DNA of 64,000 bases from Psammoneis japonica (GCA_008632985.1 QPGO01000086.1:186001-250000); one strand, 5' to 3'; positions 1 to 59,950 are shown, counted from the first letter of the stretch. A program made the numbers and translations. Notes: a model not told the origin generated them from the sequence alone.

Positions 1-49
1 GGACCTGGTTGCAAACCAGTTCACAGCAGTCCCGTGTCCACCAGAGGAG

Positions 50-1705
50 ATGGGCCTCGCCGCCGCTGGCACATTTGTCCTGGACGACACGGGGATGGCT
101 GCGGAGATCACGGCGCACCCTGAAGGGTTGGTGGGCCCCGCGGACCCGAGTGCAGCAAACACGGCAGAAGTGCGTGCGCGATTCACGATGCACGTTCCGT
201 TCGCCTGCATGAACATGCTTCTCCCAGGGGGTCTGTCCCCGAAGCAAGCTTTCACACGAATTCTTGGAGCGGCTGCGGCCAGGAACGAGGTCGACGCAAC
301 ACGTCCTTTGTTGGACCATCTCAAGGTCGCGTGCACCGCCACGGCGGGGGACCCCCACGCATCGGCCGTTGCACGAGAGTGGCCAACCATGCCCCAGCCC
401 CCGAACGCGGCGCTCATGCGGCACTTCGACCAGAAGGTCAATTTCGACCTGCCGGGGCGTGACAAGCTTGTGCTTCCGCCCCATCACATCGCACCAGTGG
501 TGAGGGCAATCGATGGACTCACGACCGAGCAGTGTCAGACGCACATTGACGCGCAGGCACGCCAGCGAGCCGCCGAGCAAGGAAAGACGCCGGCACAAGC
601 GTTCGGCGATCCAGGCATGTACAAACTTGTGAGACTTTGCCAAGTGTACACCGAAGATCAGCTGCCACCCATGTGGCCACGCCTCGCGCGGGCTTCCAAG
701 GCGGGACGCATCACTGAGGTCCAGAACGCAGTTGATGAGACGCGCCGCGCCTTGGGAGCACGTTTCCGCATCCCGGTCACTGTGAGTTTGGCATCAAAAT
801 TGATGAGCCTCAACTTTGCTGGAGACAACAGAGATGACCCTGCCCAAGGAGTCAACCCGCACCAATTTGGTCTCACGACCCCAGAGCAAGCGCAGCAAAT
901 CACTCACCGTGCTGCCATGTGCCGCCAGATCCACGGAGGTGACAGTCGGCCCAGTCTCACCGATGCGATGGTGCTGGAAACGCCTGACGACGCACGCGTG
1001 ACCACCACCATCGAATTGCTCCAACATTGTTTGGAGAGCACACGTGTCGTGCTCGCAACACTGCTGGGCACGGGACACCCTGTGGTCCAGTGCTTCACGG
1101 ATTCCCGGCAGGACCTGGACATGTGCGCCGAGGACCTGGCTGTGGAGTGCTCCCGGAATCCAACACCAGCAGCAGACATCCAGCGTCATGTGCAGGTGGA
1201 GCTCATGTCTTGGTTTTGGCTGCAGGAGACAGCCTGCAACACCGCGGTCCCATTCCATGTGCACCGAGTGGTGGGCGATGCTTCAAAGGGAAACGATTTG
1301 TGGCGTCACATGCTGCCCCCTACAATTGCATTGGTTTCCGGGAGCGTGCCCGCCCCAACTGCTACGACTCCCTCGTTGGCCCAGCCCGTGGGTGGTGCCG
1401 TGCAAAATCCACGCCCAGGCGTGCCGGGCGACAACACGCCAGTGCGCAACCCCCAATGCGACGAATGCTTCAATGCCGTCCGCGATCATCCCAACATTGG
1501 GTCACGGGAGGTAAAGTGGTGTTGCACTCAGAATGGGGTCGCACTGCCAGTCGACGCGCAAGGAAACCCACGGTGCCTCCCGCACCACTTGAAAGGGCAG
1601 CACAACTCAAACTGCGGGTGTGCAGCGGACCATCACAACAACCATGCGGAGAGCGACCAGGCAAACCTCCTCACGTGGGCAATGGAGCATTGGAAGACCG
1701 AGTGG
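50..1705 (+). pseudogene. gag-like ORF1 of the YR retrotransposon with C-terminal CCCH-like zinc finger
   Basis: CLPHHLKGQHNSNCGCAADH resembles the C-x7-C-x3-C-x5-H finger of such gags; TGG at 1703-1705 may be an erased TAG stop (inference). Confidence 0.6.
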
Positions 1706-4354
1706 GTCTTCGGCAACGGCCCGAGCTTGGGGACTCTGGGCCGAGAGCCTTTTCAGCTGCCACCGGCATCGTTGGCAGTGCTGCCACCCCCGCAGGCGGA
1801 GAGATCCACAGACAGCAATGGCCGCAGCACCTCACGTGCGCAGGCTGTTGCAGACGCTGTACAGACTGACAAACTGGGCAAGCGAACACTGCGTGACACA
1901 CAATTGCTGCGTCTTAGAGGACCAAGTCACTTGTTGCGTCGCCGCAGCGGCAGAGGGGACTGGGGACCGTTGCACCGCACACGCAAGCACCCAGCCCACA
2001 GGCTGCTGCAAAACTGCAAGCACCGCGGCGTCCCCACAACCCTCGCAGACGCACCTTGGACACCTCAAGAGCTTGAAGCAAGTTTGGCCAGGGGGCCACA
2101 CAAGTCCGCTCACGAACATGTCGAGTTCCTGCGGGAGGACATGGCCGGCTACGTCGACAAGGGTTTCTGGGTGGTCCTCCCATGTGAGGACATGAAGAAT
2201 GCCCCAGGATTGCGGCTGAGCCCCATCGGCGTGGTGCCCCAGCATGGTCGGCGACCACGACCAATCGTCGACTGCACCTTTTACGGCACCAACGACGCGA
2301 CTCAGCCCAACACCCTGATGGAAGCCATGCAGTTCGGACGCACCCTGGACCGTTTGCTGTGCCGCATTTTGCTGGCAAATCCATCGCACGGCCGGGTGTA
2401 CCTCATGAAAGTGGACCTCGCTGATGGCTTCCATCGGATGCACCTTAACCCCAATGATGCCCAACGACTCGGGGTGGTTTTCCCACATTTGCCGGGCGAA
2501 CCCCCTTTGGTGGCCATGCCCACACGGTCACCCATGGGATGGGCCAATTCGCCACCGTGTTTTAGTGCCGCCACCGAGACGGCAGCGGACCCAGCTGACT
2601 TACAGCCAGTGCGCGCCGCGACGGCGCCACCACACCCATTGGAGCAATTGGCATCCAGTCGGGTGCCAACCCATGTGCCCCCACCAACTTCACCACCCGC
2701 AACAATCGCCATGCCAATTCCGACGTCACCGGACCCACACCTCAACCCGAGCCGCCGCCGGCGCCTGGCCTACATCGACATGTGCGTCGACGACTTCATT
2801 GGCGCCGCGCAGGGGTCCGCCGCAGCCCGAAGAAACACACATCGTGTGTTGTTGCACACAATCGACGATGTCTTCCGCCCCACGGATTCGAACGACGTTG
2901 CTGCCCGCAAAGAGCCCGCATCAGTCAAAAAGCTCCGCAAGGGTGACGCCACATGGTCTACACAGAAAGAGGTGTTAGGCTGGTCAATTGACACCATGGC
3001 AATGACACTCCAACTTGCCCTTCACTGGCGTGCACGTCCACACGACACACTCTACAAGGACTTCCCCCGCACATGCAAACGCGTCACCGTCCAGGATTGT
3101 CAGAAACTCCTGGGAGAACTGCGTTCCCTCGCGGTGGCCATGCCCGGCTCGTGAGGTCTGTTCTCCAAATTACAGGAGGCCCTCCGCCACACTGCACCGG
3201 ATTCACGCATCCGACTTGCGGCCAACGTACATTCCACACTGGACGATTTTCGTGATCTGCACCAGACCCTGGACTCACGTCCCGTCTGCATCCAAGAGCT
3301 CGCACCACTGCCTCCAACTGTGCATGGCTGTCACGACGCTGCCGGCCACGGGGCTGGCGGGGTGATCGCACCAACACCCACCGCAGTCCCACGAGCCACC
3401 AAGCTACGCTGTTCCTCTGGCCGGCGTCGCATCCAACGTGATGCAGGCCCTGTCGCGTGGTGCCTGCGATTCCCCAAGGACATCTCCGACTCACTCGCCA
3501 CGCATGAGAATCCACACGGCCCCATTGCCAACATCGACCTCGAACTAGTCGGCAGCATCGTCCACACCTGCGCAGCTGCCGACACTTGCGACATCCGCGA
3601 GCGCACCAACCTAAACCATGCCGACAACCTTGGCACCATGTGTTGGCAACGCAAGGGATCAACTGCCACAGTCAAACCGGCTTCAAAGCTCCTCCGGCTC
3701 CAAGCATGCCATCAACGCCAACATCGTCACACAGGCCTCCATGATCACCACCCGGGCACTTGGAACCGAGCGGGTGACGACGCTTCGCGCCTGCAACACT
3801 TGTCTGACGTCGCGTTCCTTTCTTGTTTGAGCTCCACTTGCCCACAGAGCAAGTCTTGGCGTCTGTGGACCCCGCCACCCGAACTGCGTTCTTACATGAT
3901 CTCGGCACTGCGCAAGAAGCAGTGCAACGCGGCATCACCTCTTCCCGAGCCTCCGCCGCCGACACCCACTGGAACCTTTGGATCGACTTTTGCCGCCAAC
4001 TGGCCATCAGTCCATTTCTCGAAGACACCAATGATCCCATCCTCTTCCTCCAAGTGTTCCTCCATCGATTCCGCACCGGTGTCATCACACCAAGAGGCAA
4101 TCCCGTCTGGGCGCGCACCGCTGAGGATGCCCTGCGGTCGGTTGGGCAGACGTTCGCTGCAATGGGGTCCGCGGACCCACGTCTCACACCCCAGGGCGAC
4201 ATGGATTTCCGTCTTGCCCGCCAAATCCGTTTTTACAAGAAACAGGATCCGCCGCCCGACCGCGTTAAACCAGTCCCAGTCATCGTCCTCCTCTGGATCT
4301 TGCACGCCGCTGCCCTTGGCAACAGCGCCGGCACCAAGGCCATTGCGGATGTGA
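1706..4354 (+). pseudogene. Reverse transcriptase-RNase H ORF with one in-frame TGA at 3152-3154
   Basis: RLSPIGVVPQ, KVDLADGFHRM, PMGWANSPPCF, CVDDFI, KEVLGW; reads through the TGA as PGS*GLFSKLQEAL into RNase H motifs HDAAGHGAGG, DLELVG, DN, NRAGDDASR (ORF 3320 is in frame with ORF 50). Confidence 0.9.
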
Positions 4355-5001
4355 TCGCAATCACCTTTTTCTTTTTGCTTCGCCCGGGTGAATGCACAGC
4401 CATGCCATCTGACACCACTCCGTTTCGCCTGGCAGATCTTTGTTTGACCTCGGGCGGAGCACATTTGAACCTCTTTTCCACCGAGGCCCCTGCCCTCTTC
4501 GCCGCCACCCTCAGCTCCCTCACTTTCACCACCCAGAAAAATGGCGTTCGCGGCGAAGTCATTGCGCACGGCCTGTCAGGCCACCCAGACCTGTGCCCAA
4601 CCAGGGCCCTCGTCTGCCGAGTTGTTCACTTGCGCACCTGCGGAGCGCAACCCGACACCCCCCTGGGGGTGCACTTTGAGAATGACAGGTGGCACGCCGT
4701 CTCCCCTGCCGACATCACGTCGGCACTTCGCACCGCCATTGTTGCCCCAGGTCCCGAGAACCTGGGCTTCACACTGGCCGATGTCTCATCCCGCTGCCTT
4801 CGTGCAGCAGGCGCAACGGCGCTGTTGTGTGCCCATGTCGACACCGACCTGATCCGTCTCTTAGGCCGGTGGCGCTCTGACGAGATGCTGCGCTGCTTGC
4901 ACCTACAAGCCGAGCCCACCATGCGTGGCTTTGCACAAGCCATGCTCGCTGGGGGCAATTTCGTGCTTCACCCGAATGCTGAAGCACCCATTGCCCCGTG
5001 A
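3823..5001 (+). pseudogene. Tyrosine recombinase of the retrotransposon; catalytic Tyr replaced by Cys
   Basis: FFFLLRPGEC, QKNG, LCPTRAL, CLRAAGATAL, LGRWRSDEMLRCL. Confidence 0.9.
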
Positions 5002-5100
5002 CAGTGCTCCACCAGCCCTCCAGACGGGCCCACCCGCCCAATCCCAATGCATGTTTGGCTGGCTGCTGCACCGCCTGCACATCAGTGGGTGGCGCTGGAA

Positions 5101-5310
5101 GCCCTGCCGTCCAGCTTTGGGCAGGGAGAAAACCTTCACAGCGCTGGCAAAGCCATCTCCACTCCAAGTGCACAATGCATTCCATGAAGTTTTACATCAC
5201 TTTAGAAGAGAGCGCGCGACCAGTGGTTTGAACCCACCGTTTCACCCCAGAAGCACGCTCGTCCATCCCCGATGCGAAGCGCGCATGAGCAAAGCGGTGG
5301 CAACCGCTGT
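5101..5310 (+). repeat. Split direct repeat B1 (210 bp)
   Basis: Matches 5498-5707 except at 8 dinucleotide sites. Confidence 0.95.
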
Positions 5311-5497
5311 CCTCATCCAGTGCCAGAATCGGGGAGAAGACCCATCACCTGTTGAACCACGTGCGCACGTTGAACGTGCTGCAAGGGTTGGTTGTTGTTT
5401 TTCTTCGGTCACCGGCCTGTCTCATTCTTTCAAGATCGACAAAGACAAGCCGCTGTCGTCAGCGCAGTTTGATCGCTCCCACCTCTCCCACCCTCTG

Positions 5498-5707
5498 GCC
5501 CTGCCGTCCAGCTTTGGGTGGGGAGAAAACCTTCACAGCGCCAGCAAAGCCATCTCCACTCCAAGCACACAATGCATTCCATGAAGTTTTACATCACTTT
5601 AGAAGAGAGCACGCGACCAGTGGTTTGAACCCACCGTTTCACCCCAGAAGCGCGCTCGTCCATCCCCGATGCGAAGCACGCATGAGCAAAGCAGTGGCAA
5701 CTGCTGT
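5498..5707 (+). repeat. Split direct repeat B2 (210 bp), probable element 3' end; the 5311-5497 spacer is the putative A2
   Basis: Direct repeat of 5101-5310. Confidence 0.95.
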
Positions 5708-6824
5708 GAGTCAGACGGTCATGTGGCGCACATTGAATGCAAAAATGGGACAGGCGCGGACAAATGAATGTACAATGCAGTGCAGCGGTGACTCTGCCAG
5801 CTGCCGGTAGCCAGCTGCTGCTCTCTCTAAAAGAGAGTGGCGCAGTCGAGTAAAGAGGGCCTGCTCTGGCTCTAGCTGGGGCCCCACAGCACCAGTTGAT
5901 GTTCATTGAATTCAATTTTACATGCCGAAGTTAATCGTCACTGCTTTCTCGATGACACTGGACGGCAACAATCTCTGTGTTGTGTGCTGCTGCAGCTTGA
6001 GAGTTGCGACAGTCACCGAAATTCCCCAAATCCATCAGGACTTGACTTCAGACTTTGTCGCACTCAGGGATTGGAATCTGCAACCTGAGGGGAGGGCTTG
6101 GTTCAACATCGTGGGTCATTGGCGCCAGCACTGCATCCACTTGTTGTGCATCATGAGGCTGAGTTGACTCAGAAATTGAGTCGGGAATGATCAGATCTTG
6201 TGCAGCAAACTTTGCACATGTTCCTGTGCACAAAGCTGTGCAGGTGCTGCAGGCATGTGCCTTGCACACTTGTGGAACCCAGTGCTGAGGAGGGTTTGTC
6301 TCAGCCGAGCCCAATGAAAATGGTCCAAGCAATGAGGTGGAGACCAATGAGGTGGGTTGAAAATGGCCAAGAACAACCCAAGCATGGAGGGTGGATGACA
6401 GGGAGGGGGGCTTCTGCCCACCCAGAAGGCCACACCATGACAAGCTTTGGTCGTTCTTGGCCAATGTCAACCCCATCAAGAAGTTGCAACCAAGGTGACT
6501 GCATTGATTGCAAAGGAAGTGTGAGTGGGGTCTCTGGCTGTGAGGATTTTTGTGTTAAAGCACAAACACGCAATTGCATAGAGGGCATTTCATGTGCAAG
6601 ACTTCAGTGCAGGTGCGCAACGAGGACGGTTTGGCTCGCTGTCTTTCTTGGTTCTTTCAAAACACAATCTAGTCTACTAAACTTCGAACGCCACATTTTT
6701 GTTGATCTTTTGATTTCCTGGAACAGAGAAAGACAGAAGGGACAGTTGGACGTCAAAACTAAAGGATAACAAAATGCAAGCTACTTTAAAGTCCGAGGCA
6801 TTTCAGATTTCACAACATTGCCTC

Positions 6825-14959: not shown

Positions 14960-15980
14960 TGCACCCTCCGCTCGCTGTCGGCATTTTCCATGTTGCATGT
15001 TATGTTGCCATCGTTCTGCTGCATTGATGTTGGTGGCAGCTCAACTTTTGATGGACGTTGACCTGTTAAAGAAGGGAGAGGCAACCTCAGACATGAGTGG
15101 CAACACACCAACACACAACACCAAGGACCACAAAAAGGAGCGCTGAGAAGGAATGTCATGAGTGGTGACAAAGTCTTCCAGCTCTTCTGCAAAGCCCGCA
15201 TCATCTAGCTCAAACAGCAGAACCAACCCCCGCTGGAAGGCTTCGTTGACATCGCTTCCTCTGCCGCCATTGTGCTGCAAACAGCAACGCTCTCAGACTT
15301 CCAGAAATTGTGCACAGGTGCATGAGCTGCTCCTGTGGCAGGACAATTTGTTCTGGTGACAACTTTGAACAATTGAGGTCTTTTTGGGTTAGAGAAAAGA
15401 AGTGCAAGGATTTGGTGTGCAGCTGCGGCGGGTCAGCACGACACTCCAGAGGCTCCGTTCTTGCAAACATTCTGAAGGAGAGTGGCCAGGGGAAACCAGA
15501 AAAGAAGGGGCACAGGTCTTGAATGAGCATGCCAACATTGGCGATGATGCAATGACCATCGGTGCACTGGGTCAGTCCTGTTTGTGTGACTGGGAATGCT
15601 GGAGGATGAGAAAAAGGCCTTTGAGCTTTTCAGGCATGCTTGCAACATGGGTTGTGCTCATTCTGCTGCCAACCTTGTCACCTGCTGCAACAATGGAGTG
15701 GGAGCAAAACTGCACCGAGCAATGGCCATGAAGTGAAACAAAGCAGAGGCCAAAAGAGGCTTTGCTGGTGAATGTCAGTGCAATCTTGGCAGATTGTCAA
15801 TGAGTCCTTGACCTTTGTCAAGGCCTTTGGCAGCCCATTCTTTGAGTGCTGTGAACAGTGAGGAGTTGGATGAAACAATTTGGGGCCACCAGGTTGCCAC
15901 GGGTGGTGGAAATTGATTCGAGAGACGATCCGAGGTGCACAAATCGTCTGTTGTCGTTCGCACACGTGCAGACGATTTAT
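14960..15980. other. TpA-depleted, TG/CA-rich block; probable decayed repeat
   Basis: Very few TA and reduced CG compared with flanking genes; no credible ORF. Confidence 0.6.
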
Positions 15981-18774: not shown

Positions 18775-19452
18775 CTAATCATCTGACTCGTCGTCATCGA
18801 CCTCATCTTCCAACAACAACTCATCGTCATCGAAGTCATCTTCCGACTCTTCCAACAGTAACTCATCTACTAACTCGTCGTCGACTTTATCCGCTTCCTG
18901 TTTCCCTTCTGGATCTTTTCCCCTCTGTGGTTCACCAAGCCTCCGTTTAGGGCATCTCACTGTGAATCTCTTTTGAATAATGAATCTTGTACTCCTCTTT
19001 TTAGGGGAACCGCCACAGCCGTTGCTTCCCCAGACCTCTCCGTAGACCTTCATGCTCACATCTTGTCTCCACCTGGGAAACCTGGGAAATGAACAGACGG
19101 CATCAGTAGCAATGTCGCGAAAGGGACGATCGGGGTAGTCGGAGAAAGATCTACACTTGACCGGTGGGTCGTTCCCGTTGTTTGTAGTGACGGAATGCGT
19201 CATACATTCTCTTGCTTGGCGGTACGCTCGTTCCCGAATCGTATTGGGAATGTAACTGCCTCCCAAGCCCGTTACCCTGAATTCAAAGGGCCGCACGTGA
19301 CGTGGCCGGCTGCCATAAGCTGTGGATACGGTAAGACGGTATGCCGCTTTGCAGGAGCACTTGTATGTCTTGGCGGCGCACGCCATGACAAGCAATGTGG
19401 AGAGCGACATGCGTAGGCATGAGATCCAGTTTAGGGATAGTGCAGTCTTCAT
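18775..19452 (-). CDS. Secreted Cys-rich cationic protein with RRL site and acidic tail (copy 1)
   Basis: Signal-like N-terminus; Arg-rich Cys-containing core; KRRLG followed by an Asp/Glu tail; intact paralog at 26865-27539. Confidence 0.8.
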   Translation of the reverse strand: MKTALSLNWISCLRMSLSTLLVMACAAKTYKCSCKAAYRLTVSTAYGSRPRHVRPFEFRVTGLGGSYIPNTIRERAYRQARECMTHSVTTNNGNDPPVKCRSFSDYPDRPFRDIATDAVCSFPRFPRWRQDVSMKVYGEVWGSNGCGGSPKKRSTRFIIQKRFTVRCPKRRLGEPQRGKDPEGKQEADKVDDELVDELLLEESEDDFDDDELLLEDEVDDDESDD

Positions 19453-20105
19453 TGTTCTGTTTTTTCTAAGTCACACTTGATTTAATCTTTACATCTGTTG
19501 GATGTGTGCTTTTGTAGTTTGAGCTCCGAAGCTTGCCGAAATGCAATTTTGCATCGCGTAAGCTACTGATTTTAGTGGTATATTTCACATCAAGAGTCGA
19601 CTCAAAGTCGCGATCGCGACTTTGTATCCCCATTCTAGCCAATGATGGGATAAACATGCACGAAAACGAGGAGCACTAAACCTTTGTCAATCTGCGTCAG
19701 GTATGCTATTGGTTTGAGTCTTATAATATTCTGCATCGCGAGTTGACGACTCAAAGTCGCACGAAGCGACACTTGCCACGAGCCAATTGTTGAATAGACT
19801 ACACTAGAAGACGCGATATGAAACGTTCTTTGACTAGAAGTCGCGATCGCGACATGAAACGAAATAGAATCGCACCGATGCTTAACATGATAGCAAGCTG
19901 ATTAAAGTCGCGATCGCGACATGAACGGGAAGATCAAAATTGTGGGAACAAAAAAATGTCGTAGGTCGCGGTTCTCGTGGGACTCGAAAAAGGGTCTTGA
20001 CTGTGGAAGACGGAAGGAGGGCAAGGCGAACGAGTGAAGAGGATTCTTTGTTACATGCCTGGTGCAACAAGGCGTTTCAGCCACAACAAAAGGGGCGTCA
20101 GTCGC
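19421..20105 (+). repeat. Gene-start/promoter segment, copy A (largely intact)
   Basis: Aligns with 20218-20932 and 27508-28412. Confidence 0.9.
19603..19624. promoter_or_regulatory. Perfect 22-bp palindrome CAAAGTCGCGATCGCGACTTTG, candidate cis element
   Basis: Identical at 27694-27715; core GTCGCGATCGCGAC recurs at 19840, 19907 and 28019; function is inferred only. Confidence 0.4.
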
Positions 20106-20217
20106 ATGAAGGGAAACTTGCCACGAGCAAATTGTTGAACAGACTGCACTGGAACCACTGGAAGTCACGACAGCATGAAACACGATCTTTGGCTGCTGGA
20201 AGCCACGATCATGACAC

Positions 20218-20932
20218 GAGATCCAGTTTGGGGACAGCCCAGTCGTCATCATTCTGTTTCTTCTAAGTCAAAATTGAGTGAACATTTGCATCTGACAGAT
20301 GCTTGTTTTTGCAATTTATGAGCTCCGAAGCTTGCCGAAATGCAATTTTGCATCGTGCAAGCTGTGCCACTTCAGCAAACTTTCACATCAAGAGTCAACT
20401 CAAAGCCGCGATCACGACTTTGCAACCCCATTCAATCCAATGATGGGACAAACATGCATGAAAACAAGGAGCGCCAAAGCTTTGTCAATCTGTGTTGAGC
20501 ATGCTGTTGGTTTGAGTCTGGCAATGTTCTGCATCGTGAGTTGACAACTCAAAGTTGCGCGAAGCGACACTTGCCACGAACCAGTTGTTGAATGGATTGC
20601 ACCAGAAGATGCAATGTGAAATGATCTTTGACCAGAAACTGCAATTGTGACATGAAACAAAACAGAATTGTGCTGATGCTTGACATGACAGCAGCTGCTC
20701 ATCAAGAGTTGCAATCATGGCACCATGAACAGGAAAATCAAAATTGTGTGTGAACAAAATGTCGCAGGTCACGGTTCTCGTGAGACTCAAAAAAGGGTCC
20801 TGACCAAGCAAGATGGGAGAAGGGCAAGGCAAATGAAGCAAATGAATTTCTCAGCAAAGAGAATTCTTTGCTGTGCGGCTGGTGCAACAGGTGCATTTCA
20901 GCCGCCACAACAAAAGGGGCATCTCAGTTGCA
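20218..20932 (+). repeat. Gene-start/promoter segment, copy B (TA- and CG-hypermutated)
   Basis: Colinear with copy A, with TA->TG/CA and CG->TG/CA changes throughout. Confidence 0.9.
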
Positions 20933-21499
20933 GGTGGAAACATGTCGTGTGTGAGGCTGTGTAAAAAATGCATTCTCAAGTGGAGGGAATCTCACTTTTG
21001 GATTTTTTGCTTGTCAGTCATGGCATTTTGTGGCTGTGCTGTCACCTGGGCCTGGTGTGCTTGATGGCTTCTGCTGCAGCCTCTTTTCAATGTGCTTTTT
21101 TTTCCAAATTGTGAGCTCCTCTGTCAGGGCTCTTTTTTCCAACTGATGTCCCAGATGTGTTTTTCCTCCATGGGTTTGCTGCAATGTGGGACTCTTGCCC
21201 ATGCTGCAGAGCTCATGACTGAAACTTCTCTCTGCCATTTTCCCCTCATGATCATGTCCAGATGCCATGTGTTCATCATGCTGCAATGCGGGGCTCTCTC
21301 CCCCATGCTGTGGAGCTTGTGATTGAAACTTCCCTCTGTTTTACTCTCCCCTCACGATCATGTCCACATGCCATGTTGTGCTTGTCATGGCCAACAAATG
21401 CTGCCACATGTTTCTCAAACAAAACCCAAGCTCTGCATTTGAAGGTGCTGCTGCGCTTCCACCCTGCAACTCCAGCAGCGAGCGCCAGCCCAACACACA

Positions 21500-39658: not shown

Positions 39659-39729
39659 GCCCGAGGTCTTTTCAGTTTGGCTATTCTCTGCTGTGCAGGA
39701 AGTAGTAGAAGCATATACCTATATGGTAC

Positions 39730-50889: not shown

Positions 50890-51069
50890 GAGAAACATTT
50901 TTATTTAGAATCGTATGATGGTGGAATTTCATAGGGTAGGTTCAGAGTTTTGGGGCTGGGAGATCAAGAAGAAAAAAAAAGAAAAATGCTACATCGATAA
51001 ACTAGTAGAACAAGATGCCTTTCAATCACTCTCACTCTACTAGAGAGCTACCGTACTGGCACCTTCTTG

Positions 51070-54000
51070 CGTTCAAGAAAAGAGCGTCGCAAGCGCCCGA
51101 CTGGGCCGTCCATGCGATGACGTGGTGACATGGTGCCCCATTTTGTTTTTTCATTCACAACACAGCCATCATTGTTCCTTGAGGTGTTCGTCTCGGCATT
51201 TCAGGTGCTGTGACCGGTGCAGCAAAGGCTGGCAAGCTGTTTGATGAAATGTTGTGCTCTCAGTCGTCGTGTTGCACAGATGAAATGGCCAGCGTGGGTC
51301 GACTTGCTGTGTTGGTGTGGGAGAGACTCTTGGCATTGGACAGAATGTTGGTCTCAGCATTTAAGATGTTGCATCTGGTGCAGGTTGAGTGGGTCAAGGC
51401 ACTGGACCCAGTGTCATCAGCTGGCCAGTCAATTTGGAGCTGCTGCAGCCAGAGAGGCCTTGGAGGTGGCGGGGCTGGCACGGGCACGCGCAAGCTGTGC
51501 TGCCAGCACAGCTCAACTCAACGAGCAAGCAGGGTTGAGGGTCACTCAAGGAGAACATGCATCATTTGATTTTTGTGCAAGCTGGAGTGACCATGGGTGT
51601 TGTGGGCACTGACATCCTTTGATGAGCAGGGGTGCCCATTGGCATTTTCATTTCGTGAGTGCTGGAGCAGCTCCCCCACTCCATTTGCAAGTGTGCACTC
51701 CTGGACAAGAGTGTCCAGAATCACCATTGGGAAGAAAGGAAAGGAGAAACAGCATTGACAAAAAGGCGCACATTGACTCTGGGAACTCAGACACAGTTGG
51801 GTCTGTGCAAACACTGGGAGAGATGCAGCCTCATTTCAAGAGTGCAAGGGAGTCAATGAGAGACGTTTCTTCCCCAGACAGCACAAGTTGCTGGATGACA
51901 AGGGGCTTGTGCCACTTGTCTCTTTTGCCATGGATGCAACCTGAACACCTTGCCCCCATGTCTTGTTGGGACAAGGAGAAATTTTCAGACAGAGGGAGAA
52001 AATGGCACCTGCCAGTCTGCAAACAGGTGATTCCCTCTTCAGCAAGTTAGGGTGAAATGGAAAGAACAAGAGAGCAAGAGTGTTGGGGCAATGTGTGATG
52101 ACTCAAAAAATTGCCCCATCAAGGGTGGAAACCCCCTTGTTTTTGCCTGTTTCAAGCTCTCTTTTTCTCATCTGTCAAATTTGTTTGCTCAAATGACCCT
52201 CTCGACAAATCACATTCAATGCCAAAAATGCCCAGAAGAGTCTTCAATGTGAGCTCACAGTGGTGGCTCACTCATCCACAAAAACAAAACAATGCCCATC
52301 ATCATCTGATGTCAGCATGCACTTTCAGATTTCCCATGCTGCTTGTTCATTTTGTTCTTGCCACCAGCACCTCATGGCTTGCTCAAGCACAAATGAATGC
52401 TTTCAGGTGTGGCAACACCTGAAAAAGCTGCTGGCAATGTCTGAATTCCCTCCTGAGTGCAAGAAGAAGTTTTGGTTGCCGCAACAACTCCAAAAGGCTC
52501 TTGTTTCATGCAGTGTCGACCCCTGACTTGCAGTTGCGGATTTCAGCATGGTCCTTGGGAGCGTGCACAGTGAAGGGTCAATTGCTTGTGAGATTCTTGG
52601 CATGGAATCAACTGCCTCTGCTTGGATTTGACTGCACATGATGTGTCAAGGAAATTTCAGAGCCGGGCATCCACACCCGAGGCCAACACAGAATTTCTGT
52701 CACTCAGTGCAGATTTGCGCGATGCTGTGAACATGACATTTGAAGAATTTGAAGTCCTCAATGGCAAGGAAAGCAACAAGGAGAACCAAGCTCCTCAAGC
52801 AAAATCTGACAAGTTGCCAATTGATTTTCACAGGCACGTGCTGGATGGTGCACGGCACGTTGAAACCCGTGCATTGGGGCTTCTGCCATTTTGGGCATTT
52901 GATCATCACAAGCATTGCAAGCGCAAAAGGCACCTCAGCGCAAATGTCAAGCTGCTTGAATTCAAGAAGGATGGGTTTGGCTCTGCAGACACTTGCTGCT
53001 GTGCTGCGTGTGGGGAGAAATGTGAGTTTCACATGGCTGAACATGTGAAGACTGCCAGTGTGTTGGAAGGAACGCGTTTCTTGTGAACACAGTTTAGGCT
53101 CAATGTGTCTGTGCCAGCAAGCATCAAGTGCGCTGGACTCAACTCACTGCAAGCCATTGAACTTCATGGTGAGGCTGGGATCATTGCCCTGACAACAAAC
53201 AATCTGGGCAAAAGGATGAAGAAAGTGCACATGGCACTGCTGCAGGAAACAGAAGATGCCTCAATGGAAAATTGCAAGTGGGAGATCAAAGCAACACAGT
53301 CAAGCCCCAACTTTGATGAGGATTGTGGCACAATCAAATGGAAGGGTCCCAAGGGTGATGAGCGGTGCGCTGCCAAGGTGTCAGCACAAATGGATGGATG
53401 CGGGACAACACGATCGCACGGGAATTGCTCGACAGGTGCAGATGCACTGTCGTGCTCACAGATGTGTTGTGGCCACTGCCATGCATGCTCAGTGTGGTTT
53501 CTGGGTTTTCTCTCACCGCGCGTGACTCCTCCTGCGCGCAGCACCCAATTCTTCAAAATCTGATTGGACGTTTTGCTGATCAGACATCGGAGCAGACATT
53601 CAAGACAAGACGGGTTCCAGCCCCAGGTGGGACTTTTTGTGACATTTGCCCTGCAGAATTCCACATGCAAGCTCTGCAGTTTGCACTCTGGTCAATGGAT
53701 GCACTTGTCTTTGACATGAAATGAACGGCCAAGTTTGCAGCAGAGGGGCGTGCGGTTGTTGCAAACTCGGCCCATTTTTCACTCCAACGGTCAAAATGCT
53801 TTCCAAAGTCACGAAAACCATCAAACAAATCACACAGATCGAAAGTTCAGAATCAGAGCTAAAAATCGATGTGGGCATGTCACATGCTGCCCAAGAGTCT
53901 TTGTGCCTGAATGAAGCTGCAAAAGCAGTGCGCACGAAACCAAAAATCGAGCGAAACGCGACAATGAGACGTCTCGTCCCGGTTTGCGTTGATTGTCATC

Positions 54001-57000
54001 ATTGCTCTAATTTGCATCTTGCTCAGATCATCCTCAGTGGACATGTGAACAACAGCAGCTTCAGCAGCATGAAAAACACCTCATCTGGGTGATTTTCATC
54101 ACCATGAAGCACTCCATTGTGGTGCTGCATGAGCTCACGTGAGTGAAAATGTGGCTCAAAGTTTGTGAGCCAATGTCTCAACAACCACACAAACAACAAT
54201 GAAGCCACTGCACAGCATCACTCTGCATCATTTGCAGAACACGTTCATTGACTTAGCCATGCAACAGAAGCTGTTTTGAAGGATGAGAAACGTTTTGCGT
54301 CAAGGCACTTGAGTCATGTCAAAAGCACAAAATCTTCTTCACAGTGCAACAGCGAACATCTGTGCGAGCACAAGAGCAACCCCCAAAAACCCCAACTTGG
54401 CATTGTTCTTCATTGTCCACACAACACATTCAGCCTCTTGCCAGTGTGATGCAACCATTGTTGAAGGACGAGATGCATTTCGCATCAAGAGGGTGCATTT
54501 GTTGTCGAAATCATGGTGTGTGTCAAAACTCGTTCAGAACTCCGCGAGGATTGCTGCCCGAGATTCGGGCCTTCACCGGTTGAGTGTTCAGACTGAACAT
54601 TTTCATTGATGGTCAGCATTGATGGTTTGCCACTGACTGCCAGTGGTCAGTTCTGTTGGCGATCCATTGCCAAAAAAGTGCGCAAAAAGCGCACTCTGGT
54701 TTGCATCAACCCCGCGCCCCTCTGCACTCAAAGTTTTGGACAACACGCCTGCCCTGCGCCATTCTTGAGACACTCGAGAATGGCGCAGAAGGAAAAAACA
54801 TTGAAAGTTGTTGAATGGATTGCCTGATGATTGTGCCACAAAATCACACAAAATTTTGCCAACATCACGTGGAAATGCATGTGCGCGACACACAGTGCGA
54901 CGTGATTCAAAAAACCATCAATGTCACAGTTCAGCAGCATGAGGTCCCACCCAGACCTGGAACACATCACAAAATGTTCAATGCCGCCGATCCACCAAGA
55001 AGGAGGGCATCCAAATGGCTGGGTTGATCAAACTCAGAGGAAGCCACAAATTTGGACATGGTCCAGTGTGATGGGGTGAGACTCTTTTGTTCAAAGAAAA
55101 AACAAGCAAAAAGATGTTGGCACAAGTCAAAATGAACATTGCAACGGACAGCGTCAGCTCCATGAACTGCTTCAAACATGCCAACCAACACGCACAAGTG
55201 GCCCAGTTTCAGAAGGATGGGTGTGAACATGGCAAGATGCAGAATGACAGCCAGCCAAACATTTTCCAAAGTCTGCACAGTTGGAACTTGTGACAGCATG
55301 TGTCCCCACATGGAAGCACCAGCAGCAGCTTTTGCACTCAAAACAGCTTTTTTTGCAGATTTCCCTGGACTCAAAGGCTGTTGTGAAAAAGCTTTGCAAC
55401 AACTTCTTCATGTCAAAGCAGGACAAAGAAGCACAGCAAGTCTTGCCAGGTGGGGTGCAGAGCTGGCTTGATGGAGATGATCACGTCATTGGCTGCAGGC
55501 AGCAGCACAACAAAACCATCATTTGAAGGAACCAGCAAAATGAGAAATGTCGCCATTCCTTGACCACAAACTGAGCCACTCTGGACATCTGCCAATGCAC
55601 CAGATGCAAGCTTGATCCAGTGCAAGAAGTCTTGGTCAATGCTGTTTGCTCATTGTTGGCAAAAAAAAAACCACAGACAACATGTTCCCAAAATGGCTGT
55701 GCACCAAGGATGTGATGTCCACACTGCGCACAGCTTGACCCATCTCCTCAGAAGCAGAGGCTCCACTCTCCAAGTGGCCCCTTTGCAATCCCCACAGATG
55801 GTGCCACAAATTCTGCAGCATTTGGCTTTTTGGCAACATTGCCAGGCAAAAAAACAATGTCTGGGGCTTTTGCACCAAGAAACAAGCCACTGGGCAGCCA
55901 CCAACTTTGAAGCCAGGAAGAAGAACTTTGTTGGCTTGTCCTGAGTGAGACCCTTGCAAGAGCCATGGCCTGACAGACTTTGGCATCTTGCAAACCACCG
56001 GGCAAAGGCAAGGTGCAGAGCCCTTGCCAGAGCTCCATTTTTGCAAAAAGAAGAGATTGAAATGGACCTGGGCTTTGAGGTGGCAAGACACATCAGGCTT
56101 GTTGACAACTGCTTGGGTGTGGTGCAGCCAACAATTTTGCACCAGGTTTGGCAAGGAGCACCTGTGGCAGCTTTGTGCACTTTTTGGTCTCCTGAAAAAT
56201 GCAAGAGCTCCACAATGCAACAGGCAACAAATTGGGCTCATCTGACAGAGAAGAGCTCCTCCTGTGCTTGTCAACAAAGATTGTGACAGGACCACACAGT
56301 GCAAAGACATGTGCAAAGGTTTCTTTGACAGCAATGCCAGGTGGTGGCAGCACTTCTGTGTCCTTGGCTCCTTTGGCATGCTGAAAATTGATTTGGGCAC
56401 CTGTGGACAGAGGCCGTTTGGGCAAATGGGTGAATGGGTGAATTGCTTTCTATGATTTGCAACTGCAGCTGAACAAAACTTTGCCACACCTTCCTGATGG
56501 ATCAACCCATGGAACAGGCTGCAGCATTTGGCACTGGGGCTGCAGCTTGCCAGTGCAGCATGACCAGAGCACACTTTGGTTTGTGGGCTGCACACCATCT
56601 TTGAGCCTGCAACGCCAACAACAGGTCCTGTGAGAGACCTCTGCAGCATCAAAAACCTTGGCATCCTCACCTTGCCTGACACAGTCTCTGTTGTGTGCAG
56701 GGCCCAGCTTTGGCTCAACAGCAAGTGTGTTGCCCACAAACATTTGCAGCGATGAGGCTCATGATCAGAGCATGCACTGCAGTGATCCAGACCACCTTTC
56801 TCACAGCAACATTTTTAAAATCCATCACAGTGCAAAATTCTGTTGTTTCAAACCTTGACAGTCATGCAGTGCATGGCGATAATTTGTCAAATGTGAAAGA
56901 CAAAAAATTGTTGCTGTGGTGCCCCACCCTGTGCTGTGAGACAAAACCTTCAACTGTGAAATTGCACCCTGTTTCCCCTTCAGAGTCCCTGCCTTTTTCA

Positions 57001-59950
57001 CCTGCAGACTTTGACATTAAAAAGCCTTTTGACAAAAACAATTTGTGCCAACAAACACGTTTGATGTTTTTTTTTTAAATGCATGACACAAGTTGTTTGT
57101 CAATCAATGGCGTGAAACATCTCTCAATGAACACAAAATTGCTGCACTCCCAGGTTGTAAATGTTTTCAATGAACACCAATGCATTGCTTTGTGGTTTTT
57201 CATTCTCACACTGACAAAAGGCTCCACTCCCTCTCTGTGCCGGAGTTTGCTCCATTTCTGCATCTTCTTCATCCTCGGCTCCTGCTTCACTTCCTTCTTC
57301 CTCTTCTTTGCCACCCTTGTTGTGCTGGTCCTTTTCCATTTTCCTCTTTCTTGTCCTCCCAGTCAGAAAACTCTGTTGTTGCCTGTTTTTCTTGCCTCCT
57401 TCTCCACTGACATTTTCTTCTTTTTTGCTCCCTTGCCCTTTTCATCGTGCTCTCCCTCTTCTTGCTGCCACCATGCCATGTGTTGCACTGCACACCTTCC
57501 TCACTTGCCCTGTCCTCCTTCACTTTGCTGCAAACAACGCACCTGACAAACATGTCTCTGTTCACACATTTTGAAATCTCAGAGCTGACAACAGAGAGTT
57601 CAAGAAGAACTTGGTGGCACTGACAACTGCCCGTTGCAACTCCAACAAGGTCAGCTTCCAAATGGGAAAGTTGGCATGGCAGCGTGCACACCCCTGACAG
57701 AGGTTTGTTCCTTGTGGCTGTGCAGTGTGCCAGGCAATCATGTCAAGCCATCCAAAAGAGGCGGCGCGCCAGCCACTCACACCAACAGCACAAATTTTGC
57801 CAAGCTGTTGGATGAAATGCACAGGAGCTGCAGCTGGATGGAATTGTGGTTTGGTGCCCAATGTGCCCAGGATGTGTCATGCCTTCAGCAGTTGGAGGCG
57901 GTGTTTTGCAAGCATCTGCGTTGCTCCAGAAGTGTTGTGGGGGATTTTGCAGCAACCATCCATGGCAGCACGCATCGCACAGATGGACAGACTGCCCCCC
58001 TGCTGCGATCTCGTGCGCGCGTGCCCAGCACTCGCCACTCGTCAGCCATCGTCAGTGCGCAGCAATGACATCATGCAGCACTGTGCCACAATGCTGCAAC
58101 CGGCAGACTCTCTGCTGCCAGTGGTTGTCGGTGCAAATGCCACAATGCCATGTGCAGCATTTCTTTCTGCGGCAAAGCTGGTGCTGATTCTGTGCAACGC
58201 CACATAAAATGCCATGTTTTGCATGTGAAAAAGCGTGCCGGCGATTGATTCGTAGCCCCCGACTGCGACAAACTCATTTCTCATGTGTGCAGAAGCCTTG
58301 GAATGCCACTTCCAATCAATTTTCCCTTGTGCATTTCATGCGCCCCTGTGCCCAGTGGTGTTTGACGCTTTGCTGTCAATGGAAAAACAGCTGGGGAGCA
58401 TTGGAAAAACAGTGGTGGCATCTGGGATCAAAATGCCATGTTCATGCCATGTTCAGGGCAAATGTGGCATTTGCGTGGATGACCAGGGGATCCCGCATTC
58501 CCGCATCTCAGATCAGCTCCAGGGGACCCCAGTGGGAAGATGGCGCAGGTCTGTCCCTCTGCAAACACTGAATGACCCGGGTGCAATCGACCACCACCTG
58601 CCCAGACCGCACACCAAACGACAGTCTACAGAGCACACTGACACCACGCCTGGAAGACAACAAAACCCACCATCACAAAGGAACACGGTGCCAGAATCAG
58701 CTCAAAATTCTCGCGCACCGCCTGCGAAAATGCGCGCGTCAACTGCCCCTTGCTCGCGCAACTGCACCAACTGTGCAGTGTCCATTTTCCTTGAAAAAAA
58801 AAAAAGCAGTGGAGAGCAAGGCACATTCCCACCCTGACAATTTTGGCTGCAAAACAAATGTAATTTCGTTCTACACAAAATTCCTGTGGAAACCCTCGCA
58901 CAAGAAAAGTCGCGCATCTGTTTTCCATCCTTCAATTTGCAGCCGCAATTGTCAGCAAATTGCGATGACAGGTGTCGGTCGTCGTAAATTCTCTCCCACA
59001 AACATGATTTTCATGGCAAATTTGGCGTTTTGGGAGCTCGAACATGCCACGTCACAAGCTCTCCCATTTTGTTTGTTTCTTTCTCCGCTCCCATCCGCAC
59101 AACAACCATGATGGCTGCTGCCATGAACGGACCCATTCACACACGAACGACCGTCCTGTCTACGAAGGTGAGAATGTAGAGACAGGTCAACAAGACTGCA
59201 CTTGATGCAATCAATTGGTCAGAATCTTGAGTTTTTGTTGTTGTTGTGGCTTGTGACGACCGTGTGGACCAAAGGCATTTTTGATGTCTTCGTGTTTCTC
59301 TTGCTCAGATTTTGCGTTGGGATTCTTCACAACTCACACGTCTGCAGACTTGAGGCCAAATCTTCGTGGCAATGTGTGATCTGACATTGCATTGAGGTGG
59401 TTCTTTGGTGTGTGCTCAAGGTTGTCACTTGGTTGACGGCCAAGAGTCAAGAACACAAGAACTTTGGTCGCGTCAACAACAGCAGCACTTGTGCTCCGTT
59501 GTGATGGAACATGACTGTGAAGAAGGCTGTGTGCACTTGTTTCGTTAACCTTGTCGCAATCTGGGACAATGATGCTGGTGGGGGTCAATGTTTTGCACAA
59601 CAGCGCCCCACAGTGCCTTGCTCCATTTCCTGCAGCCCTTCTCTGCAGCTTGCTGTGTGCATTTTTGCTCTTTGAAAATGGGCCCAGGCCATTGGTCAAC
59701 TGCTGGAGTTAAGAACAGTGCCTTTTAGCACCTTGTGTGCTGTGGAAATTTCATTTAGCAGTTTTACATGCTGCAGTCTTGCTGCGTGCCATCGTTCGGT
59801 GCGTCTTTCTGCTCTCTCTGCAACTCCTGCCAGTGGATTGGATGTTGGGTGCTTTTCTTCTAGCCTTCACTGGTGTTATCATGAGTCTTTGGTTGCCGCA
59901 GAGCAATCGCAAAATGGACAACGATGGTCACTGACAATGTTGTGATGTCT
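51070..59950. other. Large TpA- and CpG-depleted block of nested decayed transposons
   Basis: Abrupt loss of TA after about 51060 and return at about 59950. Confidence 0.8.
52622..53563 (+). mobile_element. Mutator-like transposase relic
   Basis: E..DGFGS...C..C, LN.......G, EDASMEN..EI, and VSAQMDGCGTTRSHGNCSTG resembling V..DG.W..RSYG..Y.S.G. Confidence 0.5.

What the first reader, a model, noticed from the sequence alone, without database searches (positions are those of the whole stretch)
1..59950. TpA-directed hypermutation of transposon domains: a RIP-like process acting on adenine (TA->TG and TA->CA)
Seen: TA is nearly absent from 1-6600 (first TA at 620), 14960-15980, 20110-24770, 28430-31530 and 51070-59950, but plentiful in neighbouring genes, with fairly sharp boundaries. 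Homologous copies inside the window show the lost TAs became TG or CA, meaning A->G on either strand. Known: fungal RIP and 5mC deamination give C->T, APOBEC gives G->A, and ADAR editing would affect one strand of retro-copies only. None of these predicts strand-symmetric TA loss that also hits a DNA-transposon TIR and a duplicated promoter. Inference: a DNA-level process confined to silenced domains, possibly a genome defence. Candidate mechanisms are a TA-preferring DNA adenine deaminase, Pol eta-type error-prone repair (WA A->G) coupled to turnover of methylated DNA, or a mutagenic modified T/A base. I know of no description of it but cannot search.
Basis: partly seen in the sequence, partly recalled or inferred. 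Interest (0 to 1): 0.95.

Follow-up and report, generated by a model that had tools for sequence, protein, structure and literature searches.

The report
TpA-erasing hypermutation in silenced algal DNA
In five sharply bounded stretches of what is probably a diatom chromosome, almost every TA step in the DNA has been rewritten to TG or CA, a targeted mutation pattern that runs opposite to fungal RIP and that I could not find described in print.

Summary
In five domains (about 23.8 kb) TA is 0.04-0.14 of expectation against 0.61 elsewhere. CA/TG rise to 1.5-1.8, the total number of pyrimidine-purine steps stays the same, and other dinucleotides barely move.

Four independent comparisons show that TA became TG or CA in place:
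- A mutated paralogue next to its normal copy.
- Two 210-bp repeats inside a retroelement, which differ only at such steps.
- An inverted-repeat pair that straddles a domain border.
- Seven of 7 conserved Tyr codons of the reverse transcriptase, now Cys or His.

All 80 fetched metagenomic relatives of that element have normal TA, so the family is not TA-free.

Exact k-mer contigs of a DNA run match the mixed TG/CA pattern at flank-level depth. That argues against a base-calling artefact.

CpG decays to the same TG/CA in four of the five domains, but this is separable from the TA loss.

What I infer but have not shown: an enzyme or lesion specific for symmetric TpA in silenced chromatin, either adenine deamination or thymine oxidation. 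Pol eta, ADAR-like editing and RIP do not fit.

Only domain 1 is a proven transposon. Nine literature searches found no description.

The parts
1..6550 (.). Domain 1: TA-depleted (o/e 0.14), GC 59.5%, CpG nearly normal (0.81). Holds a retroelement that runs off the window's left end. The tail 5932-6556 is also CpG-poor.
   Evidence: homology to the element family over about 79-5148 by tblastx
2..3151 (+). Open frame of the retroelement with a divergent reverse transcriptase. The catalytic motif reads CVDD where relatives have YVDD. The same frame stays nearly open to 5581.
   Evidence: 7 of 7 majority-Tyr columns are Cys (TGY x4) or His (CAY x3)
5101..5310 (+). First copy of a 210-bp direct repeat at the 3' end of the retroelement
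   Evidence: differs from the second copy at 11 positions, all at YpR steps (3 TG/CA double swaps, 5 CG versus CA/TG)
5498..5707 (+). Second copy of the 210-bp direct repeat
15000..15975 (.). Domain 2: TA- and CpG-depleted block of about 1 kb. A multi-copy, TA-normal repeat abuts its right end.
   Evidence: depth and loose ends at 15932/15964
20110..24640 (.). Domain 3: TA o/e about 0.03, CpG 0.04-0.7, TG/CA up to 2.0
   Evidence: X1 contig 21448-24403 matches with 0 other letters
20215..20923 (+). Copy B: hypermutated paralogue at the left edge of domain 3
19418..20099 (+). Copy A: unmutated tandem paralogue of B, just outside domain 3 (31 TA, 44 CG)
27485..27882 (+). Copy C: second unmutated paralogue, used as the outgroup to polarise changes
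21177..21376 (+). 104-bp tandem duplication inside domain 3 whose copies again differ by CA/TG swaps
28430..31540 (.). Domain 4: TA- and CpG-depleted, single-copy depth in the DNA run
51060..59700 (.). Domain 5: largest TA-free block (21 TA in 8.6 kb). CpG depletion is patchy (0.03-0.87). A transition zone runs to about 59950.
   Evidence: no Pfam hit; ORF 55639-56814(-) has no homologue
58823..58866 (+). Inner arm of a 44-nt inverted repeat, inside domain 5
   Evidence: 6 of 6 differences from the outer arm are TA->CA/TG (4) or CG->TG (2)
60101..60144 (-). Outer arm of the inverted repeat, outside domain 5, with TA and CG intact

Best explanation
A real, DNA-level, dinucleotide-targeted hypermutation has acted on discrete chromosomal domains of a stramenopile alga, probably a diatom.

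Shown:
- Nearly every symmetric TpA step was converted by one transition into TpG or CpA (A:T to G:C).
- Each site was resolved independently and on either strand.
- No other dinucleotide was touched, apart from the slower, separable decay of CpG to the same TpG/CpA.
- One hit destroys the palindrome, so the products are immune and accumulate.
- The number of YpR steps stays constant.
- The process happened after integration or duplication. It hit a retroelement, a duplicated piece of ordinary DNA and one arm of an inverted repeat. It stops at sharp borders that can lie inside a repeat unit.

Inferred:
- The target is TpA in chromatin marked for silencing. CpG decay, the footprint of 5mC, co-occurs in 4 of 5 domains.
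- The agent is sequence-specific. ATA/TAT is removed most completely and TTTA least.
- I favour direct enzymatic deamination of adenine in 5'-TA (A to inosine, read as G).
- Second choice is oxidation of thymine at TpA by a TET/JBP-type dioxygenase to a miscoding base.
- The consequence would be irreversible inactivation. Tyr codons become Cys or His, and TATA-like and AATAAA-like signals are lost. No AT-rich DNA and no new TAA/TAG stops are created.
For: (1) Depletion and redistribution.

(2) Direction and in-place origin:
- Pair A/B: of 31 TA, 24 became CA/TG and 1 was kept. Of 44 CG, 31 became TG/CA.
- Polarised with outgroup C: 1 of 11 ancestral TA kept and 8 of 16 CG kept, against 75-100% for most other dinucleotides. 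GT (12 of 22), AT (18 of 26), GG (5 of 8), GC (12 of 17) and AC (8 of 11) kept fewer.
- The 210-bp repeats of the retroelement differ at 11 positions, all YpR: 3 TG/CA swaps and 5 CG versus CA/TG, with 0 other changes.
- Inverted pair across the domain 5 border: 6 of 6 differences are of this type, in the inner arm.
- Swaps also occur in the 104-bp tandem.

(3) Not an intrinsic composition:
- 7 of 7 majority-Tyr columns of the RT alignment are Cys or His in the window copy, while 230 of 289 majority columns are retained overall (also 4 of 4).
- 80 of 80 fetched metagenomic relatives have TA o/e 0.42-0.84.

(4) Not a read artefact:
- Contigs of DNA run X1 cover genes and domains at similar k-mer depth (about 57-82, except the repeat bins). 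They match the mixed TG/CA pattern exactly, for example 21448-24403 with 0 other letters.
- A modified base read as G would give all-TG and all-CA read populations at half depth. It would not give mixed 31-mers.

(5) Site-by-site independence: 33-36 runs among 55 events against 28 +/- 3.6 in shuffles.

(6) Context specificity of survivors. Relative survival is ATA 0.11, GTA 0.98, CTA 1.33, TTA 1.95, TTTA 3.35 and AATA/TATA 0. The same two TTTA-type sites survive in both 210-bp repeats.

(7) Separability from CpG decay: domain 1 has TA 0.14 with CG 0.81, and CpG o/e in domain 5 ranges from 0.03 to 0.87 while TA stays near 0.

(8) Six of 9 differences between X1 contigs and the window inside the domains are at YpR. 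At two of them the reads have TA where the window has TG or CA. This hints at recent or polymorphic events.
Against: - No whole genome is held. Genome-wide extent, a link to methylation or silencing, and candidate enzymes could not be examined.
- The platform of run X1 is not on record and X1 may be the source of the assembly, so the read support is not fully independent.
- Only domain 1 is a demonstrable transposon. For the interiors of domains 4 and 5 there is no ancestor to compare, so conversion there is inferred from the identical signature.
- In the polarised comparison some T>C changes lie outside TA (G[T>C]G 3 times; GT to GC 6 of 22). The numbers there are small: 50 changes on the B lineage.
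- Copy B also carries about 11% other divergence from A. In that old pair a slow process cannot be told from a burst.
- No natural TA-specific DNA adenine deaminase is known to me. 5hmU-rich dinoflagellates are not known to me to lose TA (both points recalled).
- The chemistry is inference only.
Confidence: 0.75

Rival explanations
1. Passive by-product and not a dedicated system. In late-replicating, methylated heterochromatin, an ordinary polymerase or repair pathway has a strong TpA-context A:T>G:C bias. TA drains slowly into TG/CA alongside CpG decay.
For: TA loss co-occurs with CpG decay in 4 of 5 domains. Copy B is old, with about 11% other divergence from A. The non-domain copy 25756-27914 also shows more TA loss (26) than its partner (8), as if a milder version acts elsewhere.
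Against: In the 210-bp repeats of domain 1, 8 YpR events stand against 0 other changes. The rate at TA is therefore orders of magnitude above background. Borders are sharp to within 100-300 bp. AA is not affected, which excludes the Pol eta WA spectrum. Domain 1 lost TA while keeping CpG.
Confidence: 0.13
2. Sequencing or assembly artefact. A modified base at TpA (and 5mC at CpG) in silenced DNA is misread, so TA exists in the cell but is called TG or CA.
For: The pattern is symmetric and sits in domains that probably carry base modifications. Long-read consensus errors at methylated motifs are known (recalled). The platform of X1 is not on record.
Against: X1 contigs built from exact 31-mers at depth about 57-82 match the window over the domains with 0 other letters, at the same depth as the flanking genes. 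Error-prone reads could not give that. Strand-specific misreading would give all-TG or all-CA reads at half depth, not the mixed pattern seen within 31 nt. The non-YpR sequence of these domains is normal.
Confidence: 0.04
3. Intrinsic composition. The domains are foreign or transposon DNA that was already free of TA and CG when it arrived, for example from a donor that avoids these palindromic steps.
For: Domains 2-5 have no recognisable protein domains or homologues. No ancestor is available for the interiors of domains 4 and 5.
Against: Where an ancestor or relative exists, it has TA: copies A and C, the outer inverted-repeat arm, 80 of 80 family relatives and the conserved Tyr codons. Repeats inside a domain differ by TG/CA swaps, which requires conversion after duplication. 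The YpR total is conserved.
Confidence: 0.04
4. RNA-level A-to-I hyper-editing (ADAR-like) of double-stranded transposon RNA, fixed in the genome by reverse transcription.
For: Domain 1 is a retroelement. Adenosine deaminases prefer a 5' U (recalled).
Against: The two 210-bp repeats of one element were resolved independently. A duplicated non-retro segment and one arm of an inverted repeat are affected, and the border lies inside that pair. AA, CA and GA are untouched despite near-complete loss of TA. There is no strand clustering. ADAR is a metazoan family (recalled).
Confidence: 0.02

Closest known systems
Repeat-induced point mutation (RIP) of filamentous fungi (RID / DIM-2 dependent)
   Same: Near-saturating, dinucleotide-biased transition mutagenesis confined to defined stretches with sharp borders. 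It inactivates transposons irreversibly and leaves a diagnostic dinucleotide index.
   Different: RIP is C:G>T:A, mostly CpA>TpA. It makes TpA and AT-rich DNA and creates stop codons. Here the flow is the reverse (TpA>CpA/TpG): GC is kept or raised and TAA/TAG stops are not created. RIP needs duplicated DNA and mutates both copies. Here duplicates A and C are intact and most affected DNA is single-copy. The organism is a stramenopile and not a fungus. Diatom DNMT4 is related to RID and its function is unknown (passages of PMC9998398).
CpG decay by deamination of 5-methylcytosine in methylated transposons (known in diatoms and many eukaryotes)
   Same: A symmetric YpR dinucleotide in silenced DNA is converted by one transition on either strand to TpG/CpA. 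This very process is present in domains 2-5 (CG o/e 0.30).
   Different: It cannot remove TpA. TA loss is more complete than CpG loss and occurs without it in domain 1 (TA 0.14 with CG 0.81).
5-hydroxymethyluracil / base J: TET/JBP-type thymine modification in dinoflagellates and kinetoplastids
   Same: It is a eukaryotic DNA modification with a reported preference for thymine in TA (and TC) dinucleotides. It is enriched on repeats together with 5mC and linked to transposon silencing (passages of PMC11572971).
   Different: It is an epigenetic mark and is not known to erase TA from the genome. The window gives no evidence that the modification exists in this organism.
Deaminase hypermutation of mobile elements (APOBEC3/AID on DNA; ADAR on RNA)
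   Same: Context-specific enzymatic deamination acts as a defence and leaves hypermutated copies.
   Different: APOBEC/AID give C>T (G>A) in TC/WRC contexts with strand-coordinated clusters. ADAR edits RNA with only a moderate 5' neighbour preference. Here A:T>G:C occurs strictly at TpA, on both strands and without clustering.

Membership tests
Fungal RIP | C:G to T:A transitions, typically CpA>TpA, raising TpA/ApT and lowering (CpA+TpG)/(ApC+GpT) | tested here: not met
   The direction is opposite. TA o/e is 0.04-0.14 and CA/TG 1.5-1.77 inside the domains. TA>CA/TG is seen in the paralogue pairs.
Fungal RIP | Triggered by sequence duplication, with both copies mutated | tested here: not met
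   Duplicates 17571-19825 / 25756-27914 and copy A keep their TA. Most of domains 3 and 4 is at single-copy depth in X1. TA-normal multi-copy repeats abut the domains.
Fungal RIP | RID/DIM-2 dependence and premeiotic timing in a fungus | not testable with these tools
   No genome is held. Named homologues point to diatoms.
5mC-driven CpG decay | CpG deficit balanced by TpG/CpA excess in silenced DNA | tested here: met
   CG o/e is 0.30 in domains 2-5. CG>TG 16 and CG>CA 15 of 44 in pair A/B. Methylation itself was not measured.
5mC-driven CpG decay | Accounts for the whole signature | tested here: not met
   TA loss is not produced by C deamination. Domain 1 has TA 0.14 with CG 0.81.
ADAR-type RNA hyper-editing of retro-copies | A>G clustered on one strand per molecule, limited to retro-transcribed units | tested here: not met
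   The runs test shows no clustering. Repeats within one element were resolved independently. Non-retro DNA is affected and a border lies inside an inverted pair.
Pol eta (WA-motif) error-prone repair | A>G at both TA and AA | tested here: not met
   AA o/e is 1.17-1.26 inside against 1.14 outside. Ancestral AA was kept in 20 of 21 cases, against TA in 1 of 11.
TET/JBP thymine modification (5hmU/J) or TpA adenine modification | Presence of the modified base at TpA in these domains and of the enzyme in the genome | not testable with these tools
   No genome, raw signal data or mass spectrometry is available. There is only the context bias of surviving TAs.
Base-calling artefact at modified bases | Accurate amplified reads disagree with the assembly at the affected sites | tested here: not met
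   X1 exact-k-mer contigs agree with the window over the domains at flank-level depth. The platform is not on record, so this test is strong but not final.
Retroelement with reverse transcriptase (domain 1 only) | RT homology and terminal or split direct repeats | tested here: met
   282 homologues at E<=0.001, the best at 4e-183. RVT_1 matches are weak and below the Pfam cut-off in both the window copy and its relatives. The superfamily (DIRS/PAT-like) is my guess and was not tested.

The most novel reading that the evidence does not exclude
The organism has a dedicated genome-defence editor that converts A:T to G:C specifically at TpA in double-stranded nuclear DNA of silenced domains. This would be a natural TA-specific adenine deaminase or a miscoding thymine oxidase. 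Functionally it is a mirror image of RIP: it kills transposons by erasing Tyr codons, TATA-like and poly(A)-like signals, without creating AT-rich DNA. Its enzyme would be a new kind of natural base editor.
Probability: 0.4. Interest if true: 0.95.

Novelty: new variant of a known kind. Interest (0 to 1): 0.85.

Why it matters
Targeted hypermutation as a genome defence is known only as cytosine-directed chemistry (RIP, APOBEC/AID). It is thought of as largely fungal or vertebrate. A saturating, TpA-specific A:T>G:C process in a major group of marine algae would add three things:
- A second chemistry for mutational silencing.
- A new and easily computed genomic index, TA o/e together with CA/TG o/e.
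- A concrete place to look for a natural enzyme that makes A:T>G:C changes in double-stranded DNA, which so far exists only as engineered editors (recalled).

There are practical consequences too. TA-free DNA lacks TAA/TAG stops, so it yields long spurious ORFs. Mutated transposons escape profile searches: the window's RT scores E 0.042 against Pfam RVT_1, while three of its relatives score 2.6e-06 to 1e-04.

Tried and rejected
- Whole genome: none is held. No genome-wide scan or proteome search was possible.
- Pfam on 56 stop-free ORFs of the five domains: 0 families.
- Six frames of 54001-57600 read through with X at stops: 0 families. Domains 3 and 4 and the rest of domain 5 were therefore not scanned frame by frame.
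- The longest ORF of domain 5 (55639-56814, minus strand, 392 aa) against 1.84 billion representatives: 0 hits. I take it as a by-product of the lack of TAA/TAG.
- blastx and tblastx of the window against the fetched proteins and loci: only domain 1 is related to the retroelement. Isolated short tblastx hits elsewhere were judged spurious.
- Terminal repeats for domains 2-5: none found, apart from the 44-nt inverted pair at the domain 5 border.
- Rfam, tRNA and tandem-repeat scans: nothing relevant except the 104-bp tandem.
- RNA evidence: no RNA holder is listed. Run X2 carries a contig with a 79-nt GT..AG skip at 18679-18759 and so looks like RNA. It has no cover on the depleted domains.
- Protein atlas look-up for taxonomy: uninformative.
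- Earlier findings of this scan: nothing on this genome or this sequence. The word search returned only phage dinucleotide biases, which did not affect my reading.
- Literature: nine full-text searches found no description of TA>TG/CA hypermutation. One search was poorly targeted. Two further requests failed on term format.
- Pol eta, ADAR, APOBEC and RIP were considered and rejected on the spectra (see the membership tests).


Full report
**What the window is.**
It is a gene-dense eukaryotic stretch of 64 kb with 49% GC and long ORFs. These include a JmjC/Cupin_8 protein, an EamA transporter, a BTB protein, an NB-ARC-TPR protein and a DUF1499 protein. A run laid on it shows one short GT..AG intron. 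The JmjC protein has no close database relative: the best hit is 44% identical. The few named hits are from diatoms and brown algae (Fragilaria, Skeletonema, Ectocarpus, Pylaiella). The retroelement described below has named relatives in the diatom Cyclostephanos. I therefore treat the organism as a stramenopile alga, probably a diatom. No whole genome is held.

**Check of the observation.**
- TA counts against base-composition expectation are 40/271, 5/62, 10/314, 7/196 and 27/576. The first TA is at 620, and TA-free runs reach 2197 bp.
- Measured against the TA density of the rest of the window, Poisson log10 P lies between -12.7 and -124 per domain.
- Strand-symmetric observed/expected values show that only pyrimidine-purine steps change. 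TA is 0.14 (domain 1) and 0.04 (domains 2-5) against 0.61 outside. CG is 0.81 and 0.30 against 1.04. CA=TG is 1.50 and 1.77 against 1.17. The remaining dinucleotides stay within about 0.2 of their outside values.
- The fraction of all YpR steps is the same inside (0.230-0.258) and outside (0.2465). TA and CG were converted into TG/CA and not deleted.
- Borders are sharp, within 100-300 bp.

**Direction: four independent comparisons.**
1. A tandem paralogue pair straddles the left border of domain 3. The normal copy A (19418-20099) has 31 TA. In the depleted copy B (20215-20923) these align to CA 14, TG 10, TA 1 and other 6. Of 44 CG, 16 became TG, 15 became CA and 13 were kept. With a third, normal copy C as outgroup, 1 of 11 ancestral TA and 8 of 16 ancestral CG survive on the B lineage. 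Most other dinucleotides keep 75-100%. GT (12 of 22), AT (18 of 26), GG (5 of 8), GC (12 of 17) and AC (8 of 11) keep fewer.
2. Two 210-bp direct repeats lie at the 3' end of the retroelement in domain 1 (5101-5310 and 5498-5707). They differ at 11 positions, all at YpR steps: three TG/CA double swaps and five CG versus CA/TG, with no other difference. A TG/CA swap is what independent resolution of one ancestral TA (or CG) in two copies produces. Three discordant sites imply about six ancestral TA in 210 bp, close to what normal TA density predicts (my arithmetic). The same two TAs, both in T-rich TTTA-type contexts, survive in both repeats.
3. A 44-nt inverted pair has one arm inside domain 5 (58823-58866) and one outside (60101-60144). 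All 6 differences are TA>CA/TG (4) or CG>TG (2) in the inner arm. It also shows that a domain border can fall inside a repeat pair.
4. The reverse-transcriptase frame of domain 1 was aligned with 26 homologues. All 7 majority-Tyr columns are Cys (TGY, 4) or His (CAY, 3) in the window copy, including the catalytic YVDD, which reads CVDD. Overall, 230 of 289 majority columns are retained. A 60-homologue alignment gave 4 of 4.

A 104-bp tandem inside domain 3 again differs by CA/TG swaps, though it also has other differences and its alignment is poor at the ends.

The family is not TA-free. All 80 metagenomic relatives fetched have TA o/e 0.42-0.84, and the window copy at 0.14 is an outlier. These 80 are the best of 386 confirmed relatives and were found through conserved peptides. 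That choice favours unmutated copies, so the result says nothing about how common mutated copies are elsewhere.

On the artefact question, contigs of DNA run X1 are built from exact 31-mers. They cover genes and depleted domains at similar depth (about 57-82, except three repeat bins). They match the window over the domains, for example 21448-24403 with 0 other letters.
- Error-prone long reads could not give such k-mer depth.
- A modified adenine read as G would give all-TG reads from one strand and all-CA reads from the other, at half depth each. It would not give the intermingled TG and CA found within 31 nt, and the order of outcomes along pair A/B is random.
- X1 may be the source of the assembly and its platform is not on record, so a Sanger or raw-read check is still worthwhile.
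- X1 is not identical to the window. Of 9 listed differences inside the domains, 6 lie at YpR steps. At 30165 and 30292 the reads have TA where the window has TG or CA. This looks like allelic or strain polymorphism for the same process.

**Anatomy of the process.**
- Outcomes are independent from site to site. Among 55 TA or CG conversions in pair A/B there are 33-36 runs against 28 +/- 3.6 in shuffles. There is thus no strand-coordinated clustering of the kind deaminases leave on single-stranded DNA.
- The surviving TAs are not a random sample. Relative survival by 5' neighbour is ATA 0.11, GTA 0.98, CTA 1.33 and TTA 1.95. With two bases it runs from 0 (AATA, TATA) to 3.35 (TTTA). The agent therefore reads more than the dinucleotide.
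- TA loss and CpG loss are separable. Domain 1 has lost TA but kept CpG (0.81), and its GC is 59.5%. Within domain 5, CpG o/e ranges from 0.03 to 0.87 while TA is near zero throughout.
- In the 210-bp repeats every non-T-tract TA is gone, only about a fifth of CpGs differ and nothing else has changed. The rate at TA is therefore well above that at CpG and orders of magnitude above background.
- AA is untouched.

**What the domains are.**
Domain 1 is a retroelement. 282 homologues were found at E<=0.001, the best at 4e-183. The Pfam RVT_1 match is weak in both the window copy and its relatives. Homology runs over about 79-5148 and the element has split direct repeats. I guess it is DIRS/PAT-like but did not test that.

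Domains 2-5 could not be identified.
- There is no Pfam hit in 56 ORFs or in six read-through frames of 54001-57600.
- The longest ORF has no homologue.
- No terminal repeats were found.
- Most of domains 3 and 4 sits at single-copy depth in X1. Repeats occur only at 21212-21812 and next to the borders.

'Transposon domains' is therefore proven for one of five. The multi-copy repeats that abut domains 2 and 3 have normal TA, and the large duplication 17571-19825 / 25756-27914 is not depleted. Repetition alone is not the trigger. Copy 25756-27914 does show more TA loss than its partner, 26 against 8, which may be a mild exposure.

**How it most likely works.**
Shown: the target is the symmetric TpA step in double-stranded chromosomal DNA of delimited domains. 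One transition on either strand gives TpG/CpA, which is no longer a target. The process therefore runs to saturation and stops.

Inferred: the domains are silenced chromatin, because CpG decay, the footprint of 5mC, accompanies TA loss in four of five. The agent is a sequence-specific enzyme or an enzyme-made lesion.
- I favour deamination of adenine in 5'-TA to inosine, which is read as G. My reason is that the change is direct, saturating and free of collateral damage.
- Second choice is oxidation of thymine at TpA by a TET/JBP-type dioxygenase to a miscoding base. Thymine modification with a TA preference, on repeats together with 5mC, is documented in dinoflagellates (passages of PMC11572971). 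That 5-formyluracil mispairs with G is recalled and comes from no call.
- My rough split is adenine deamination 0.35, thymine modification 0.25, a repair or polymerase by-product 0.15, and other or unknown the rest.

Consequences that can be read from the sequence:
- Tyr becomes Cys or His, including in the RT active site.
- AATAAA-like and TATA-like words disappear. For example, AATAAA in the outer arm is AACAAA in the inner arm.
- TAA and TAG cannot arise, so dead DNA keeps long open frames.

**Comparison with what is known.**
- RIP is the closest in logic but fails its defining tests. The direction is opposite, there is no dependence on duplication, and the organism is not a fungus.
- Diatom DNMT4 is related to fungal RID and has no known function (passages of PMC9998398). 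It could bear on the CpG part only.
- CpG decay is present but cannot explain the TA loss.
- ADAR-like editing, APOBEC/AID and Pol eta are contradicted by the spectra.
- Nine full-text searches and passages of PMC2806351 gave no report of such a process. Subscription journals are not covered by the library.

**Verdict.**
Its labels 'transposon', 'RIP-like' and 'adenine', and its Pol eta option, are not established or are contradicted.

I rate it a new variant of a known kind: mutational inactivation of silenced DNA, with a chemistry not known from any described system. Interest is 0.85. The main gaps are genome-wide extent, proof of silencing or methylation, and the enzyme.

Noticed in passing
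17571-19825 and 25756-27914: A 2.2-kb segmental duplication (81% identity) that includes part of the EamA transporter ORF. The second copy, which lies between domains 3 and 4, has lost more TA to TG/CA (26) than the first (8), with the excess strongest at 25756-26005.
   Followed up: partly
18679-18759: A contig of run X2 skips 79 nt with GT..AG ends, so X2 (labelled 'DNA?') behaves like RNA. This is a spliced intron just downstream of the EamA ORF (17276-18463).
   Followed up: no
15803-16403, 21212-21812, 24818-25418: Bins with summed k-mer depth of about 500, 720 and 240 against about 60 elsewhere, with loose ends at 15932/15964, 21445 and 24758. These are multi-copy repeats. Those at the right borders of domains 2 and 3 have normal TA content.
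   Followed up: partly
55639-56814 (-) and other long frames in 1-6550 and 51060-59700: TA-free DNA has only TGA as a stop, so it yields long ORFs (up to 392 aa in domain 5) without any homologue. This is a trap for gene callers.
   Followed up: yes
30165, 30292, 30339, 30386, 21171, 31190: Run X1 differs from the window at YpR steps inside the domains. The reads have TA at two sites, TG at two sites where the window has CG, and CG at two sites where the window has TG. This may be allelic polymorphism of the same process.
   Followed up: partly
13383-13964 / 13900-14483 and 45623-46751 / 47867-49070: An internal tandem repeat (78% identity) lies within the 430-aa ORF 13461-14753(-), which has no Pfam family. 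There is also a diverged duplicate pair (65% identity) downstream of the NB-ARC-TPR gene.
   Followed up: no
39730-44572 (-): A BTB/BACK protein and a 1019-aa NB-ARC plus TPR protein sit next to each other on the minus strand. Both appear to lack introns.
   Followed up: no
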